Assembly: GCF_030013595.1 (NCBI RefSeq)
Contig: NZ_CP122768.1
Direction: 5' to 3' (one strand)
DNA length: 64,000 nucleotides
DNA from: Escherichia coli
GTDB taxonomy: Bacteria; Pseudomonadota; Gammaproteobacteria; Enterobacterales; Enterobacteriaceae
Shown: piece after piece, positions 28,599-33,395 of the stretch
Position numbering within the stretch: position 1 is the stretch's first letter
Layout: each line of letters begins with the position of its first letter
Notes under the pieces: model-generated
Seen by the model: the letters and a program-made list of their open reading frames with translations, nothing else
Told to the model about the DNA's origin: nothing
Databases searched by the model: none
Program-made: the position numbers and the translations under genes

Positions 28599-29341
28599 AT
28601 GATACAGAGTCGAAAAATCAAAGAGTTAAAAATTTTTCTTGGAATAAATGTCTTAAAATCGTACACGAAAAATCAATGAATTACATAACATTAAAGAAGA
28701 ATATTCCAAGCCTTCTTGAGGCTACCACCTGTTTTCAGGTGTCATTCAGACGTGATTTGCCCCAGATTGGGAAAGCACGCTTTTTTCTCAGCTATCGCCC
28801 TCTTATTTTGTCGTTACATTTCTTTTTGCACTCTAATGATTAATTTACAATAATAATATCGGTAATTATTGAGTAATAATAAATTGATTATTGCAAATGT
28901 AATTTAATTCCATCTTCGCGTTATATTCCAATCTTTAATCTCCGCATGGAACAAGTTGCATGCGTGACTATATTAAGACAACTTATAACCACCGAAACAT
29001 TTGCTTTGCAAGCAAAAACAGTGACCATTGACTCTAAGAAAATTCCGATCTATTGTTAGGGTCATCAAAGTTACTTAACAGTATTCCGAAATGAAAATAC
29101 AAAGCAAGCTAATTGTCTTATTAAACATTATTATTGCATTTATATTATTTGAGCTTTTAGCTCAAAAATTTGGTTTGAGTACATTATTTTAAAGCAAGAT
29201 AAACAATATCGGGCACTCTAGTTTTTATAATTAACAATTAAACGTCCATAAAATGTTATTTACTTTTCTTCGCTATTGTCATATCTTAATATAGTGGCTT
29301 ACGCCACTCTACTTTCATCACATTTTGTACGTTTATGTACT

Positions 29342-29372
29342 CGCCATGAAGCTCTTTCATGGCGATTTTTTA
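29342..29372 (+). terminator. intrinsic terminator in the AT-rich b-region gap
   Basis: 9-bp stem CGCCATGAA/TTCATGGCG with 5-nt loop, then TTTTTT. Confidence 0.45.
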
Positions 29373-29457
29373 TTCTTAATCCAAGAACATACTCCCTACC
29401 TATAGCAAAATCACTTTTTGAACAAAAGAATAACGTATTTAGGTAATCATTACGAAT

Positions 29458-30039
29458 TTACCCTATAGGTGCTACTGGCCATTCAATATCCGGTGCAGTT
29501 GTTGTATTAACACGGTTCAGCAACACCCGATACTTTTTCCAGGCTTCCAGCAACGAGTTTTCTTCCTCCGTTGCGATTTCCAGATCTACAGCATCCTGAA
29601 GTGGCGCAATATGCTCACTGGCTACCTGCATCAGGTTGTTTTTTGTTTCTTCCGCCTCCCGGATCCGGAACAGTTTTTCTGCTTCCGTATCCTTCACCCA
29701 GGCTGTGCCGTTCCACTTCTGAAACTCCCCTTCCGGGGATAACCAGGTGACATTTTCCGGTAATGGGCCAAGTTCAGAAATAAATAACGCGTCGCCGGAA
29801 GCCACGTCATAAACCGTTTTACCCCGATGATCTTCAACGAGATGCCACGATGACTCATCACTGTTGAAAACAGCCACGAAGCCAGCCGGAATATCTGGCG
29901 GTGCAATATCGGTACTGTTTGCTGGCAGACCTGTATGAGGCGGAATATATGCATCACCTTCACCAATAAATTCATTAGTTCCGGCCAGCAGATTATAAAT
30001 TTTTATGGTCCGTGGTTGTTCACTCATTCTGAATGCCAT
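29458..30039 (-). CDS. tfa: tail fibre assembly protein
   Basis: 193 aa, lambda Tfa-like, immediately downstream of stf. Confidence 0.85.
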
Positions 30040-33000
30040 TATGCAAGCCTCACAATATAGTTAAATGCGATGTTTTTGACGGTGTTTTCCGCGTTACCAG
30101 CAGCGTTAACGGTGATGGTGTGTCCATGTGAACCAATCGCAACCGAGTGCGTATGCGCACCAATACCTACAGTATGTGCGTGTGCACCTGCGCTTGCAGC
30201 AGTACCCGATACAGAGTGCGTATGAGCGCCTGCAGAAGAAGTGTTAACACTGTATTTAGAATAATCAGGTGATCCACTTCCCGGAGCACCTTTGGTGCCA
30301 CCTGAAACAAATGTCATCGAATGGGTATGTGCACCGGCTGAAGCAGCCGTACCGCTAACACTATGGGTATGCGCACCAGTGTTATTCGTGGATTTAGTGC
30401 CGTAATCAAACGACGATGTGGTTTTCGTCCCCAAATCCGTACTGGATACGCTGGCGCTGTGGGTGTGTGATTTAATGCCGTCCTGTTCCTGAGACAATAC
30501 GGCTCGATCACTGGCGGGCTTGCCCTTAATCGTCCAGCCACGCATATCAGGGATCACGCCTGACGGATAAGCGGCTGCAAGTTTCGGGTAAGCAGATTTG
30601 TCAAAAGTCTGCCCCTGCATCAGGGCATAACCAGACGGAACGGTATCTGATGGCCACGGGATTGGTGCGCCGACTGGGTAGCTTTCTGGTGGAAGATTTT
30701 TCGAGGTATAAACTTCTGCCCAGTCTTCCTCAAAACCATAACCGTCTCTTGAAGAACGGTAGAACAGACCACCATTTCTGTAATGCGCCTTCATCTGCAA
30801 GGTCCGGCAACTTCCGACTCCGGTATAGAAGTTAACCAGAATATAGCTGTAGCCAGAGCGGGTGACATTATAAGCGCCTGATTCGGCATTCCAGGGAACG
30901 CCACCATCCGCATCGGCATATGTATCCGTTGCCCTTCTGGCAAAAGCAGCCACATGCGCGGCGGTTAAAGTAATATCTTTGGAACCATCAAACTCAACAC
31001 CAGAAACCCGTCTTGGCGTTTGCAGCTTTGTTGCTGTTAATGCATTACCGTTCAGACTTGCGGACAGTTTGGTTCCAATAACCAGTTCGCCGGTTGCGTT
31101 ATCAATAGCAAACGGTCTTAATGTATTCCAGCTACCATAAACATCACCTTGATTGGTAAGCAGCAGGTAAGTTTTAGCGCCATCATTACGCCATAATGCA
31201 CCATACTCCCCACCTATCATTCGAATCTGATTACCACCACGCGCTACAATTTCGTCTGTGGCAAAAAGTTTTTTGCACGACAAGTTATCGTTAACGATTA
31301 ACGAATGAGACTCATAAAAACCACGCCCACTCTTAAAATCAAGGATAACGTCCGCCGCGATACATTCAGTCGCCGGATTTGTTGCCCCAAACTTATAGGT
31401 CGTATCATTAACAACGAGATCAGCACCAGGTGCGGATATTGACAGGCCATCTTCGATAAACGCAAAAACAGGGAAAGCAGCGCCATCAACATAGAACACA
31501 GAGCGCAAATCATCGCCCTTATTACTCATCATTATTGAGTGGATGGCTCGTTCATTGTTTTGATATTGCCAGAACATTCCATAAGCATAACGCCCCCTGT
31601 CAGTACAGCCACCAGGCATAACAAATCCGTTAAACTCGCAGTTATTCATCGGATCGCCTGCGGTTCGCGTTGCCGTGGTGATAATGACCCTTGATGCCAG
31701 TTCGCTTACTGAGCCAGCAGAACGCATAACAGCAACAGGGTAATATTTTCCAGATGTTGCACCTGCAGGAGCGTTAACCCGCACATAACGCATACCACGC
31801 TTATCAGCAAAGTCTGTTTTACTGACCGCGTTAATGTTGTTCAGGAAGCGTCCCTTATCGGGTATATCAGCGCCGTTCTGGTCTTTCTGCAGACGTTTCT
31901 CTGCATTGTCATAGGCTGATTTTACTGCCTTTGGCGTTGCCGCCAGCGTTTCAGACGTACTGTTGGTCGCACTGCTGAGCTGTACTACCCCCTTTTTCGT
32001 CGTGCTCGCATCCTCAAGCGCCACGGCGGACGCAATATCCTCTGCCCGTTTTGCCGCTGTCTCGGCGCGCGTTGCCGCGGATTCCGCCGTACTTTTGCTC
32101 TGTGCTGCCGCCGTCGCACTGCCAGCTGCCTCTGTCGCCTTCGTGGATGCTGTCGTGGCGCTGCCCTTCGCTGCGGACGCTTGTCTGGTCGCCTCATCTT
32201 TTGAAGCAGACGCCGATGATGCCGATGACGCCGCCGAACTGGCGGACGATGCCGCTGCCGTTTTTGAGGATTCTGCACGGGTTTCCGACGCTTTCGCGTT
32301 CGTTTCGGATGTCTTCGCTGCGGAAGCTGACCTCGCTGCTGCCGTGGCCTGCTCAGTGGCTTCGCCAGCCTTCGTTGTGGCTGTTGAAGCGGATGATGCG
32401 GCGCTTTCTGCCGATTTTCCGGCGGCGGTGGCACTGGCTGAGGCCTGCCCGGCACTTGTTGACGCGGCACTGGCAGACGACGCAGCCGCTGTTTTTGAGC
32501 CTGCCGCAGCTGAGGCGCTCTGTCCCGCTGCCGTCTCAGAAGACCTGGCGTTCGTCTCGGACGTTTTTGCCGCCTTCGCGGAATTTCCTGCCGCCGTTGC
32601 CGAGGAAGCTGCGCTACTGGCGCTCAAGGATGCGTTCGTTTCTGATGATTTCGCTGCCTCTTTTGAGGCCGCCGCATCCCGGGCTGAGGTGGCAGCTTCT
32701 GACGCCTTTGTGGTCGCTGCGGATGCAGAAGTGGCTGCAGATTTTTGTGACGCTGCCGCATTCGTTTCTGACGTTTTCGCCGCAGCGGCACTGGTGGCCG
32801 CCGCGCTTTTTGAGGACTCTGCAGCGGCAGCACTTTTTGATGCTTCAGTGGCCTTTGTTGATGCCGTTCCTGCGCTGGAAGACGCTGACTGAGCCGACGA
32901 AGCGGCCTGTCCGGCTGACGTGCTGGCTGCGCGTGCTGAGCCTGCAGCATCAGTCGCATGGGTTGCCGCCTCACGGGCAGATGTGCCGGCATCGCCGGCT

Positions 33001-33395
33001 GACTTCTTCGCGGCTGCCGTGTTCTGTGCCACCACGGACGCGTTACGCGCCACCTCTTCCACCATCAGCTCAAAACGGCGCAGTGCCTCCGGACGGGCAT
33101 CATCCTCCGTCATGGCACCGAGAAAATCATTCAGCGTACCGGGTCGGGAATCTTCATACACTGTGATAGTCCCGGCATGTGACGGCGGGAATCCTTCCAC
33201 CAACAGAATAACGCTGTACTGACCGTACTCAACGTCCATACTGTAACGCCCGGCTTCATCCGGATTTTCTGAGGCCAGCGTGTTCACCACCACCGTGGTG
33301 CTGTTACGTTTTGCTTTCAGCTGGATTGTGCAGTTCTGTACCGGTTTTCCTGTGCCGTCTTTCAGTACACCTGAAATCTTTACTGCCATATTCAC
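30039..33395 (-). CDS. stf: side tail fibre protein with long Ala/Ser/Thr-rich repeat region
   Basis: 1118 aa; lambda Stf-like N-terminus, ~350 aa low-complexity tract, C-terminal repeated HTHS motifs. Confidence 0.85.

What the first reader, a model, noticed from the sequence alone, without database searches (positions are those of the whole stretch)
28599..29457. ~850-bp AT-rich gene-poor stretch with a small hydrophobic ORF and a terminator
Between the tRNA fragment and tfa no ORF of 60 aa or more is called. The plus strand has a 33-codon ORF (29091-29192, MKIQSKLIVLLNIIIAFILFELLAQKFGLSTLF) with one predicted TM helix, and a strong hairpin plus T6 terminator at 29342-29372. That combination resembles type I toxin or small membrane protein loci, or an sRNA. 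The ORF has only a weak SD, so coding is uncertain.
Basis: seen in the sequence. Interest (0 to 1): 0.45.

Follow-up and report, generated by a model that had tools for sequence, protein, structure and literature searches.

The report
Unannotated YncL-like small-protein cassette beside tfa
The AT-rich gap next to the phage tail-fibre assembly gene is two things joined together: a dead integration-site scar, and a small self-contained gene cassette that most likely makes a 33-residue membrane peptide related to the E. coli stress peptide YncL, which annotation pipelines have missed in about 15% of complete E. coli genomes.

Summary
The stretch is AT-rich (28-38% GC), has no ORF of 60 aa or more inside it, contains the 33-codon ORF at 29091-29192 with no Shine-Dalgarno sequence, and has a strong plus-strand terminator at 29341-29371.

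It is not one unit.
- **Left part (28536-28793):** a fossil attR junction of a serU-integrating phage, made of a tRNA-Ser 3' fragment plus an att arm. It sits as passenger DNA in the b region of a prophage integrated at the lambda att site.
- **Right part (28880-29457):** a conserved 578-bp cassette that always abuts the tfa stop codon. It occurs in 830 of 5426 complete E. coli genomes and is absent from otherwise identical prophage ends, which is the signature of a moron.

The cassette has a conserved TTGACT-17-TATTGT promoter, the 33-codon ORF, and a 3' UTR that ends in a nearly invariant hairpin-linker-terminator block.

The ORF is intact in every full-length copy examined. Its dN/dS is 0.09 against a 78%-identical copy. 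It matches only the YncL model in NCBIfam (E 1.3e-5, 25 bits, below the 35-bit cutoff), and shuffled controls do not match.

I found no antitoxin RNA and no Rfam family. The best reading is a prophage-borne, unannotated YncL-like small membrane protein gene. Expression is untested.

The parts
28260..28535 (.). Captured host DNA: the chromosomal spacer downstream of serU (yodB side). It lies outside the finding but is part of the same fossil junction.
   Evidence: It is 99% identical to the yodB-to-tRNA-fragment spacer of E. coli UMNK88 and 97% identical to that of TB354.
28536..28600 (-). 3' fragment of a serU-type tRNA-Ser gene. This is the displaced att core of a serU-integrating phage and is not a functional tRNA.
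   Evidence: ARAGORN calls no tRNA here. The fragment matches tRNA-Ser in prophage SerU-LTIIb and in other phage records. Rfam gives only partial T-arm matches.
28600..28793 (.). Module A: the phage att arm next to the serU core, a fossil in this prophage. It holds direct repeats at 28611-28628 and 28666-28683 and inverted repeats at 28638-28657 / 28691-28710, which are candidate Int or IHF sites.
   Evidence: It is found alone, next to serU and directly upstream of other tfa genes, in many E. coli genomes at 96-99% identity. Their role as binding sites is inferred, not tested.
28794..28879 (.). AT-rich filler specific to this arrangement, joining module A to the cassette.
   Evidence: It is shared only by the roughly 271 genomes and 4 phage records that hold the whole 858 bp. 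It is absent from the E. coli 042, K-15KW01 and TUM12355 classes.
28880..29457 (+). Module B: the conserved cassette. Its right end always abuts the tfa stop codon, and it runs convergent to tfa.
   Evidence: It is present in 830 of 5426 complete E. coli genomes, with up to 4 copies each, in four identity classes (99, 96, 91-94 and 78%), and is never annotated. Strain TB354 has the same arm and the same tfa but a different 164-bp filler in its place. The cassette occurs in att-lambda, serU, Qin-like and sitABCD prophage contexts.
28912..28990 (.). Upstream conserved non-coding island, function unexplained. It may be a second promoter or a regulatory site; a candidate -10 TATATT lies at 28969-28974.
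   Evidence: Identity to the 78% class is 83-93% over most of it (peak 90-93% at 28940-28984), while 28985-29029 falls to 57-62%. It is retained in all genomic contexts. No ORF is conserved in any of the six frames.
29028..29056 (+). Predicted sigma-70 promoter TTGACT-17 nt-TATTGT. The predicted start site is near 29063-29064, giving a leader of about 27 nt.
   Evidence: From the promoter scan. The -35 hexamer is invariant, and the -10 keeps A-11 and T-7 (TATTGT or TATCGT) in all classes. As a pattern match alone it is not above chance: the scan found 5 sites against 4.1 expected. Conservation is the argument for it.
29091..29192 (+). 33-codon gene for a YncL-like single-pass membrane peptide, MKIQSKLIVLLNIIIAFILFELLAQKFGLSTLF. 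It has no Shine-Dalgarno sequence.
   Evidence: The ORF is intact at exactly 33 codons in 21 of 21 full-length unique copies and in 14 of 14 metagenome hits. Against the 78% class, dN/dS is 0.09, with 7 non-synonymous changes among 18 (binomial P = 1.5e-4) and substitutions by codon position of 7:2:11. The only NCBIfam hit is YncL, at E 1.3e-5 and 25 bits. It is 39% identical to K-12 YncL over 28 ungapped residues.
29193..29284 (+). Variable part of the 3' UTR.
   Evidence: Over 29193-29299, identity to the 78% class is 68%, with insertions and deletions; 30-nt windows fall to 55-65%.
29285..29374 (+). Nearly invariant 3' block. It holds hairpin 1 (29293-29308), a single-stranded linker CUCUACUUUCAUCAYAUUUU, hairpin 2 (29327-29340), and the intrinsic terminator (stem 29341-29365, T run 29366-29371).
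   Evidence: Identity to the 78% class is 90-97%. Folding energy is -22.8 kcal/mol, z = -5.9. All 20 consensus pairs are kept, but none shows a compensatory change. In IMG/VR, the scan for the block returned 19 contigs, 18 of which carry the full ORF and 1 is cut off inside it, and the ORF-based scan returned 19 contigs.
29375..29457 (.). Spacer between the terminator and the tfa stop codon. It co-varies with the type of tfa gene, so a recombination junction lies at the 3' block.
   Evidence: Identity between classes is 65%. Strain GF130 is like K-15KW01 to the left of the terminator and like TUM12355 to the right of it.
29458..30039 (-). tfa, the tail fibre assembly gene. It is convergent with the cassette and marks the cassette's constant neighbour.
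   Evidence: From the ORF list and the annotations.

Best explanation
The stretch is a mosaic inside the non-essential 'b region' of a lambdoid prophage integrated at the lambda att site.

**Left third.** This is a dead attR junction of a serU-integrating phage: host DNA, the displaced 3' fragment of tRNA-Ser, and the phage att arm. It was carried along by past recombination and does nothing here.

**Right two thirds.** This is a moron, meaning a self-contained accessory cassette. Its structure is:
- a sigma-70 promoter (29028-29056);
- a predicted mRNA of about 310 nt;
- an ORF (29091-29192) that encodes a 33-residue single-pass inner-membrane peptide, a distant homologue of the stress-induced small membrane protein YncL;
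- an intrinsic terminator (29341-29371) that ends the transcript and stops it from running antisense into tfa.

**What is shown.** The anatomy, the presence/absence behaviour, purifying selection on the peptide, and specific similarity to YncL.

**What is inferred.**
- The promoter fires in the lysogen independently of late transcription.
- The peptide is translated despite having no Shine-Dalgarno sequence.
- Like YncL, it inserts in the inner membrane and, when made, lowers the membrane potential or modulates a membrane partner. That could give the lysogen a stress or phage-exclusion phenotype.
For: **Mosaic structure**
- The lambda att core is at 26198-26212, next to ybhB and bioA.
- Window 28260-28793 matches the serU attR junction of UMNK88 and TB354.
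- Module A and module B occur separately in other genomes.

**Moron signature**
- TB354 has the same arm and a 93%-identical tfa, with a different 164-bp filler in place of 28794-29467.
- GC is 28-31% against about 50% in the tail genes.
- The promoter is conserved and the terminator is plus-strand only.
- The cassette sits beside tfa in four unrelated prophage contexts.

**Coding**
- The ORF is intact in every full-length copy.
- No insertions or deletions fall inside it, although they occur just outside it.
- dN/dS is 0.09 at dS of about 1.0, with P = 1.5e-4.
- The other five frames are closed.

**Homology**
- All three peptide variants hit only NCBIfam YncL, with E from 1.3e-5 to 7.5e-5.
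- BLASTP finds 11 identities in 28 ungapped residues, including S5, N12 and F27-G28, at E 2e-7.
- None of 20000 shuffles reached the observed alignment score, even when the hydrophobic core was kept in place.
- None of 8 segment-preserving shuffles hit YncL.

**Function by analogy**
- Producing YncL depolarises the membrane and condenses the nucleoid (PMC12542507).
- YncL is a substrate of RseP in vivo (PMC10470546).
- The Salmonella yncL transcript was first catalogued as the 'sRNA' STnc1110 (PMC5437024).
Against: - There is no Shine-Dalgarno sequence in any class, at -0.4 kcal/mol against -7.2 for K-12 yncL. Translation efficiency is therefore doubtful.
- The YncL score of 25 bits is below the curated 35-bit cutoff.
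- Only one deeply divergent class (78%) exists, so the selection test rests on about 18 substitutions.
- Scans of 100,044 species genomes and of the metagenome collection added no new sequence classes.
- The best-conserved parts of the cassette are non-coding: 28940-28984 and 29285-29374. The peptide may therefore not be the only, or even the main, product.
- No expression data of any kind are available here.
- The promoter match on its own is no better than chance.
Confidence: 0.6

Rival explanations
1. The main product is an RNA. The nearly invariant 3' block (29285-29374: hairpin, AU-rich single-stranded linker, terminator hairpin with U tail) would be released as, or act as, an Hfq-type base-pairing sRNA. 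It could be a 3' UTR-derived sRNA, or the whole transcript could be dual-function. The ORF would then be secondary.
For: - The block is 90-97% identical between classes whose synonymous sites are about 56% different, so it is better conserved than the ORF at about 80%.
- It folds well, at z = -5.9.
- Its architecture draws weak full-length matches from several Hfq-sRNA models: VrrA at 23 bits, MicC at 22.8, Hrs12 at 18 and Esr41 at 15.6.
- There is a precedent in the Salmonella yncL transcript, which was first catalogued as the sRNA STnc1110.
Against: - Every Rfam score is far below the gathering threshold.
- No compensatory pair occurs among 20 predicted pairs.
- The U tract is interrupted (UUUCUU) in most classes.
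- The high identity could also reflect a recombination junction, since GF130 switches class exactly here.
- In IMG/VR, 18 of the 19 contigs carrying the block also carry the full ORF, and the nineteenth is cut off inside it.
- An RNA-only function does not explain the codon-level selection on the ORF.
- No complementary target was found in the window.
Confidence: 0.15
2. It is a type I toxin-antitoxin locus. The 33-residue hydrophobic peptide would be a membrane-damaging toxin, held in check by an antisense or adjacent sRNA and by poor translation initiation.
For: - It is a small hydrophobic ORF with no Shine-Dalgarno sequence, so translation is limited, as in many type I toxins.
- Its relative YncL depolarises the membrane and reduces viability when produced.
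- A weak minus-strand promoter-like site at 29282-29253 would give an RNA antisense to the 3' UTR and the ORF.
- The upstream conserved island could belong to a long 5' UTR or to a divergent sRNA.
Against: - The minus-strand promoter-like site scores 9 of 12 and its -35 is not conserved (TGTCAT becomes TGCTAT).
- No minus-strand terminator was found.
- The two inverted repeats that link the upstream island to the ORF or to the 3' block (I2, I14) lose complementarity in other classes without compensation.
- There is no hit to any known type I toxin family in NCBIfam, Pfam or PADLOC.
- YncL itself has no known antitoxin.
Confidence: 0.1
3. It is non-functional DNA: a decaying remnant or a 'boundary sequence' that persists only because it hitch-hikes with tfa and serves as a patch of homology for recombination between prophages. 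The ORF would be open by chance in AT-rich sequence.
For: - The diversity is very narrow and the cassette is restricted to E. coli.
- Clear recombination breakpoints lie at its edges and at the 3' block.
- In the E. coli 042 and TUM12355 classes the cassette sits between two tfa fragments.
- It has no Shine-Dalgarno sequence.
Against: - dN/dS of 0.09 with third-position bias, and no insertions or deletions in the ORF while they occur on both sides of it.
- Specific similarity to YncL that shuffles do not reproduce.
- AT-rich sequence is rich in stop codons. The other five frames carry 1 to 6 stops over the same 102 bases.
- The promoter and terminator are conserved.
Confidence: 0.1

Closest known systems
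YncL (E. coli b4598; NCBIfam NF000537), a 31-residue stress-induced inner-membrane protein
   Same: - The size is almost the same (33 against 31 residues), and the two align without gaps over residues 1-28 at 39% identity.
- Shared positions are M1, S5, V9, L10, N12, A16, L19, F20, L22 and F27-G28, with a basic residue at positions 6 and 26.
- Both have a single hydrophobic core.
- YncL is the only NCBIfam family hit.
- Both are short monocistronic units ending in a hairpin.
   Different: - The score is 25 bits against a 35-bit cutoff, where true YncL scores 68.6.
- It is carried on prophages beside tfa, not at the chromosomal patD-ortT locus.
- It has no Shine-Dalgarno sequence, whereas yncL has a strong one.
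- It has a 3' UTR of about 180 nt with an invariant 3' block, whereas yncL is followed directly by its hairpin.
- Its C-terminal tail differs (GLSTLF against GWFI).
Phage morons (Juhala, Hendrix and colleagues, from my own knowledge), for example lambda bor and lom, and HK97 gp15
   Same: - It is extra DNA between neighbours that are adjacent in related prophages.
- It has its own promoter and terminator.
- Its base composition is deviant.
- It lies at the tail-fibre end of the genome.
   Different: - It is much smaller than the described morons.
- The product is a 33-residue peptide.
- Expression from the repressed prophage has not been shown.
YnaM/YnfT (NCBIfam NF041477), the 37-residue hydrophobic small proteins at the tfa-pin ends of the K-12 cryptic prophages Rac and Qin
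   Same: They are small hydrophobic peptides encoded in the same neighbourhood, between tfa and the prophage end.
   Different: - There is no sequence similarity.
- K-12 lacks module B altogether.
- In K-12, pin and a cold-shock-like gene lie between tfa and these genes.
Type I toxins (Hok, Ldr, TisB, Ibs, ShoB, ZorO, DinQ)
   Same: It is a short hydrophobic single-helix peptide with poor translation signals, and its relative YncL is membrane-depolarising.
   Different: No antitoxin RNA is identifiable, and it matches none of these families.
PasB and other prophage-encoded Hfq sRNAs of pathogenic E. coli (Pearl Mizrahi et al. 2021, PMC8550237; Zhu, Shabalina and Storz 2026, bioRxiv 10.64898/2026.05.13.724894)
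   Same: These are short prophage-borne transcripts with terminator hairpins, found among tail genes. The flanks of PasB are enriched in Rfam IS009 hits, and IS009 also lies beside this cassette.
   Different: PasB maps between tail genes I and J of E2348/69 (NC_011601, 1466261-1466343, minus strand), and its probe sequence is absent from the window. It is a different element.

Membership tests
YncL (NCBIfam NF000537, equivalog) | HMM score at or above the curated cutoff of 35 bits | tested here: not met
   The three peptide variants score 25.0, 23.5 and 22.5 bits, with E from 1.3e-5 to 7.5e-5. K-12 YncL scores 68.6 bits.
YncL (NCBIfam NF000537, equivalog) | Sequence similarity to YncL beyond what hydrophobic composition gives | tested here: met
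   - BLASTP gives 11 identities in 28 residues with no gaps, E 2e-7.
- The Smith-Waterman score is 60, against 20-23 (sd 4-5) for shuffles; none of 20000 shuffles reached it.
- None of 8 segment-preserving shuffles hit YncL in NCBIfam.
- No other family is hit at E up to 10.
YncL (NCBIfam NF000537, equivalog) | A peptide of about 30 residues with one transmembrane helix | tested here: met
   It has 33 residues and a GRAVY of 1.51. The hydrophobic maximum is at residues 7-21, compared with 9-23 in YncL.
YncL (NCBIfam NF000537, equivalog) | Orthologous chromosomal position (patD - yncL - ortT) | tested here: not met
   The cassette lies in prophages beside tfa. K-12 yncL lies between patD and ortT.
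YncL (NCBIfam NF000537, equivalog) | The peptide is made, sits in the inner membrane, and depolarises the membrane when produced | not testable with these tools
   This is known only for YncL itself (PMC12542507; PMC10470546).
Phage moron | Present or absent between genes that are neighbours in related phages | tested here: met
   TB354 has the same att arm (98.8%) and the same tfa (93.4%) with a 164-bp filler in place of 28794-29467. The cassette is in 830 of 5426 genomes.
Phage moron | Its own promoter upstream and its own terminator downstream | tested here: met
   TTGACT-17-TATTGT is conserved in all classes. The plus-strand terminator has z = -5.5. These are sequence predictions only.
Phage moron | Base composition unlike that of the surrounding phage genes | tested here: met
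   GC is 28-31% against about 50%.
Phage moron | Transcribed from the repressed prophage | not testable with these tools
   No expression data are available here.
Type I toxin-antitoxin system | Small hydrophobic toxin ORF | tested here: met
Type I toxin-antitoxin system | An antisense or adjacent sRNA gene with a promoter, a terminator and conserved complementarity to the toxin mRNA | tested here: not met
   - There is one minus-strand promoter-like site scoring 9 of 12, and its -35 is not conserved.
- There is no minus-strand terminator.
- Inverted repeats I2 and I14 are not maintained in other classes.
Type I toxin-antitoxin system | Membership of a described toxin family | tested here: not met
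   There are no hits in NCBIfam (apart from YncL), Pfam, PADLOC or PHROGs.
Type I toxin-antitoxin system | Toxicity on expression that is relieved by the RNA | not testable with these tools
   This needs an experiment.
Described sRNA families (Rfam 15) and PasB | A score at or above the family's gathering threshold, or sequence identity with PasB | tested here: not met
   The best scores are VrrA at 23 bits against a threshold of 50, and MicC at 22.8 against 90. The PasB probe is absent from the window, and PasB maps between tail genes I and J.
Structured RNA (3' block 29285-29374) | Base pairs supported by compensatory changes | tested here: inconclusive
   All 20 pairs are kept, but none has changes on both sides. 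Two pairs vary only through wobble. There is too little diversity to decide.
Phage att site (serU type) | A tRNA 3' fragment flanked by host DNA on one side and phage DNA on the other | tested here: met
   Window 28260-28793 is collinear with the attR junction of serU prophages in UMNK88 and TB354. In this window the junction lies 2 kb inside a prophage whose real junction is the lambda att core at 26198-26212. It is therefore a fossil.

The most novel reading that the evidence does not exclude
The cassette is a dual-function prophage gene. One transcript of about 310 nt would make a YncL-like depolarising peptide, translated without a Shine-Dalgarno sequence. Its nearly invariant 3' end would also be released as an Hfq-binding regulatory RNA. 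Together they would give the lysogen a switchable low-energy or phage-exclusion state. It would be a new phage-borne branch of the small membrane stress peptides and would also have RNA activity.
Probability: 0.12. Interest if true: 0.65.

Novelty: new member of a known kind. Interest (0 to 1): 0.4.

Why it matters
- A conserved small gene present in about 15% of complete E. coli genomes is missing from every annotation examined. It is also carried by culturable lambdoid phages (mEp332, ev099, PhiR70_1). Two non-conserved ORFs nearby are annotated in its place.
- It adds a mobile, phage-borne relative to YncL. YncL is one of the few small membrane proteins with a reported cellular effect: membrane depolarisation, nucleoid condensation and greater sensitivity to antimicrobial peptides.
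- If the prophage copy acts in a similar way, lysogeny by common coliphages would alter the host's membrane energetics, stress tolerance or susceptibility to other phages.
- Because the phages plate on K-12, which lacks the cassette, the question can be tested directly.

Tried and rejected
- **PasB lead.** A 2026 preprint reports that the flanks of PasB are enriched in Rfam IS009, which lies in tfa right beside the cassette. I checked the coordinates and probe in the supplement of Pearl Mizrahi et al. PasB lies between tail genes I and J of E2348/69, and its probe has no match in the window. Rejected.
- **Rfam.** I ran it at three scales. The only match above threshold is IS009, inside tfa. 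The matches on the 3' block are weak and generic.
- **Other protein libraries.** Pfam, PHROGs and PADLOC gave nothing for the peptide.
- **Representative-protein search.** The search of 1.84 billion proteins found only the identical peptide and one frameshift variant.
- **Attempts to widen diversity.** I scanned genome contigs with peptide patterns (1 hit, a contig filed under a Collinsella MAG), viral contigs by DNA and by peptide (the same 19 contigs), and metagenome contigs with a back-translated pattern (14 hits). No new sequence class appeared.
- **Complementarity between the upstream island and the ORF or 3' block.** Inverted repeats I2 and I14 are not conserved and not compensated.
- **Conserved small ORFs in the upstream island.** None exists in any frame.
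- **The 55-aa ORF (ev099 gp28) and the 37-aa ORF (annotated in PhiR70_1).** Neither is conserved. In the 37-aa ORF, ATG becomes ACG in other classes. The 55-aa ORF is cut short wherever module A occurs alone. Neither has a family hit.
- **A target for the conserved linker within the window.** Only the linker itself matched.
- **K-12.** The Rac and Qin prophage ends and the yncL locus show no DNA similarity to the region.
- **Literature search.** A search for the peptide sequence found no paper.
Full report
**1. What is in the sequence**

The stretch 28599-29457 lies between a 3' fragment of a tRNA-Ser gene (28536-28600, minus strand) and the stop codon of tfa (29458-30039, minus strand).
- No ORF of 60 aa or more lies within it. 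The longest are 56 and 55 aa. A 114-aa minus-strand ORF that runs through the tRNA fragment overlaps the first 68 bases and is spurious.
- GC content falls to 28-31% at 28850-29449, against about 50% in tfa and stf.
- The 33-codon ORF is at exactly 29091-29192.
- The hairpin is 29341-29365 (10 bp, -15.2 kcal/mol, z = -5.5), followed by T6 at 29366-29371. The T run exists only on the plus strand.
- The ORF has effectively no Shine-Dalgarno sequence. The best anti-SD pairing is -0.4 kcal/mol, against a median of -2.8 for random 25-mers of the window.

**2. Context**

The window is E. coli. Host genes bioA and ybhB are followed by a lambda att core at 26198-26212 with one mismatch. The prophage starts there, and 26213-29457 is its non-essential 'b region'. 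This region holds:
- IS3-family fragments;
- an AraC-family regulator (27210-27962, minus strand);
- the tRNA fragment;
- the stretch in question;
- tfa and stf.

The same order occurs in the sequenced phages ev099, mEp332 and PhiR70_1 at 99% identity.

**3. The stretch is a mosaic**

BLAST against 5426 complete E. coli genomes splits it into parts that occur independently.
- **Fossil att junction.** Window 28260-28793 is collinear with the attR junction of prophages integrated in serU. It consists of host DNA downstream of serU, the displaced 3' tRNA fragment, and about 194 bp of phage att arm. The arm contains direct and inverted repeats of the kind expected for integrase and IHF sites. Because this prophage's real junction is the lambda att core 2 kb to the left, the serU junction is a fossil carried inside the phage genome.
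- **Module B.** The right part, 28880-29457, is a separate 578-bp unit.

**4. Module B behaves as a mobile cassette**

- It is present in 830 of 5426 genomes, with up to four copies each, in four identity classes: about 99%, 96%, 91-94% and 78%.
- Its right end always abuts a tfa stop codon, but its left neighbours differ. They are the serU arm (as here), a Qin-like remnant beside ydfJ in E. coli 042, and sitABCD in K-15KW01, GF130 and others.
- Strain TB354 has the same att arm (98.8%) and the same tfa (93.4%), but a different 164-bp filler in place of 28794-29467.

Presence or absence between fixed neighbours, deviant base composition, and a private promoter and terminator together define a phage moron. 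That definition is from my own knowledge of the work by Hendrix, Juhala and colleagues. No feature is annotated in module B in any RefSeq row inspected. The only ORFs annotated in the stretch in phage records, 55 aa in ev099 (in module A and the filler) and 37 aa in PhiR70_1 (in module B), are not conserved.

**5. Anatomy from the alignment of the four classes**

Identities below are against the 78% class.
- A conserved non-coding island at about 28912-28990: 83-93%, with no conserved ORF in any frame.
- A divergent stretch: 57-62%.
- The promoter TTGACT-17-TATTGT at 29028-29056. The -35 is invariant, and A-11 and T-7 of the -10 are kept.
- A 27-nt AU-rich leader.
- The ORF: 80%.
- A variable 3' UTR: 55-68%, with insertions and deletions.
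- A nearly invariant block at 29285-29374: 90-97%. It comprises hairpin 1, a single-stranded linker, hairpin 2 and the terminator.
- An 82-bp spacer that co-varies with the type of tfa gene: 65%.

**6. Is the ORF a gene?**

- It is intact at exactly 33 codons in all 21 full-length unique copies and in all 14 metagenome hits. Insertions and deletions occur immediately after its stop codon and in the UTR, but never inside it.
- Against the 78% class there are 11 synonymous and 7 non-synonymous differences. This gives dS of about 1.03, dN of 0.094 and omega of 0.09. The binomial probability of 7 or fewer non-synonymous changes among 18 is 1.5e-4. Substitutions by codon position are 7:2:11.
- The other five frames carry stop codons.
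- One frameshift variant exists in two short contigs.

This is good evidence for selection on the peptide, but it rests on one deep comparison.

**7. What is the peptide?**

- NCBIfam returns a single family, YncL (NF000537), for all three variants, with E from 1.3e-5 to 7.5e-5 and scores of 22.5-25 bits. This is below the curated 35-bit cutoff; true YncL scores 68.6 bits.
- K-12 YncL, read directly from NC_000913.3, is MNVSSRTVVLINFFAAVGLFTLISMRFGWFI. It aligns to the peptide without gaps over residues 1-28 at 39% identity. The shared residues include the polar S5 and N12 and the F-G pair near the C terminus.
- None of 20000 composition-preserving or segment-preserving shuffles reached the observed alignment score. 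None of 8 segment-preserving shuffles hit YncL in NCBIfam.

I conclude that it is a distant homologue of YncL, not an orthologue.

From the literature, YncL is:
- a validated 31-residue inner-membrane protein induced by heat shock and in minimal medium, as stated in PMC12542507 citing Hemm et al. 2010;
- a protein whose production depolarises the membrane, condenses the nucleoid and sensitises cells to magainin-2 (PMC12542507);
- a protein cleaved by RseP in vivo (PMC10470546).

In Salmonella, the yncL transcript was first listed as the sRNA STnc1110 (PMC5437024).

**8. Rival readings**

- **Type I toxin.** No conserved antisense promoter or terminator exists. The two inverted repeats that could link the upstream island to the mRNA are not maintained in other classes. 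No known toxin family matches.
- **sRNA.** The 3' block is the best-conserved element and looks like the 3' module of an Hfq-type sRNA. However, the Rfam scores (at most 23 bits) are far below threshold, no pair shows compensatory change, and strain GF130 switches sequence class exactly there. The high identity may therefore reflect recombination. In IMG/VR, 18 of the 19 contigs that carry the block also carry the full ORF, and the nineteenth is cut off inside it; the ORF-based scan also returned 19 contigs. A dual function is not excluded.
- **PasB.** Identity with the published prophage sRNA PasB was tested and rejected.
- **Junk.** This is contradicted by the selection signal and by the similarity to YncL.

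**9. Distribution and limits**

The peptide is essentially confined to E. coli prophages.
- There was one hit among the representative genomes of 100,044 species.
- There were 19 IMG/VR contigs and 14 metagenome contigs.
- All belong to the same four classes.
- K-12 lacks the cassette. Its Rac and Qin prophages carry the unrelated small proteins YnaM and YnfT in the equivalent neighbourhood.

Nothing here shows transcription or translation. The missing Shine-Dalgarno sequence is the main internal argument against efficient translation.

**10. Verdict**

This is a new, unannotated, phage-borne member of a known kind: a small membrane stress peptide of the YncL type, packaged as a moron. It sits beside an unrelated integration-site fossil. 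It is of moderate interest and is directly testable with phages that plate on K-12.

Noticed in passing
window 29498-29696 (-): There is a full-length match to Rfam IS009 at 227.7 bits (gathering threshold 117), lying entirely inside the tfa coding sequence. This 'sRNA' family therefore coincides with the 3' half of a tail fibre assembly gene here.
   Followed up: partly
window 28260-28600: About 277 bp of host chromosome (the spacer downstream of serU) plus the displaced tRNA-Ser 3' fragment sit 2 kb inside a prophage integrated at the lambda att site. The free phages ev099, mEp332 and PhiR70_1 carry the same DNA. This is a record of a past aberrant excision or of recombination between prophages.
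   Followed up: yes
window 26198-26212 (-): The lambda att core ACTTTTTTATACTAA (one mismatch) lies next to ybhB and bioA. It marks the true junction between prophage and host.
   Followed up: partly
window 26437-27168 and 27210-27962 (-): IS3-family transposase fragments and an AT-rich (32-36% GC) 250-aa AraC-family regulator lie in the phage b region, between the att site and the serU fossil. This is probably another accessory module. In ev099 it is annotated as an AraC family regulator.
   Followed up: no
window 28912-28990: This non-coding island is 83-93% conserved over most of its length (peak 90-93% at 28940-28984) between cassette classes that are otherwise 55-80% identical. It is retained in every genomic context and has no conserved ORF. 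Its function is unexplained; it may be a second promoter, with a candidate -10 TATATT at 28969-28974, or a regulator binding site.
   Followed up: partly
L004 4891-4991 and L005 4892-4991 (E. coli 042 and TUM12355): In the 96% and 78% classes the cassette is flanked on both sides by tfa 3' fragments in the same orientation. This suggests that the cassette moves by recombination within tfa genes.
   Followed up: partly
L031 4891-5004 and L032 6294-6407 (K-12 Qin and Rac): ynfT and ynaM encode identical 37-residue hydrophobic peptides near the tfa-pin ends of two K-12 cryptic prophages. This is a parallel case of small membrane peptides at prophage ends, unrelated in sequence to the peptide studied here.
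   Followed up: partly
window 56080-56235 (-): Adjacent tRNA-Thr(TGT) and tRNA-Asn(GTT) genes lie within the prophage part of the window. They are probably phage-borne tRNAs.
   Followed up: no
window 30039-33395 (-): The 1118-aa side tail fibre protein has a very long Ala/Ser/Thr-rich repetitive region of about 350 residues.
   Followed up: no
L030 (JAIJJM010000739.1): The only hit among the species-representative genomes is a 1.5-kb contig filed under a Collinsella MAG. It encodes the identical peptide. It is probably E. coli phage DNA that was binned wrongly.
   Followed up: no
L006 4195-4358 (strain TB354): The 164-bp filler that replaces the cassette in TB354 has its own GC-rich hairpin followed by a T run on the same strand. 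The position just downstream of tfa therefore carries a plus-strand terminator whether or not the cassette is present.
   Followed up: no
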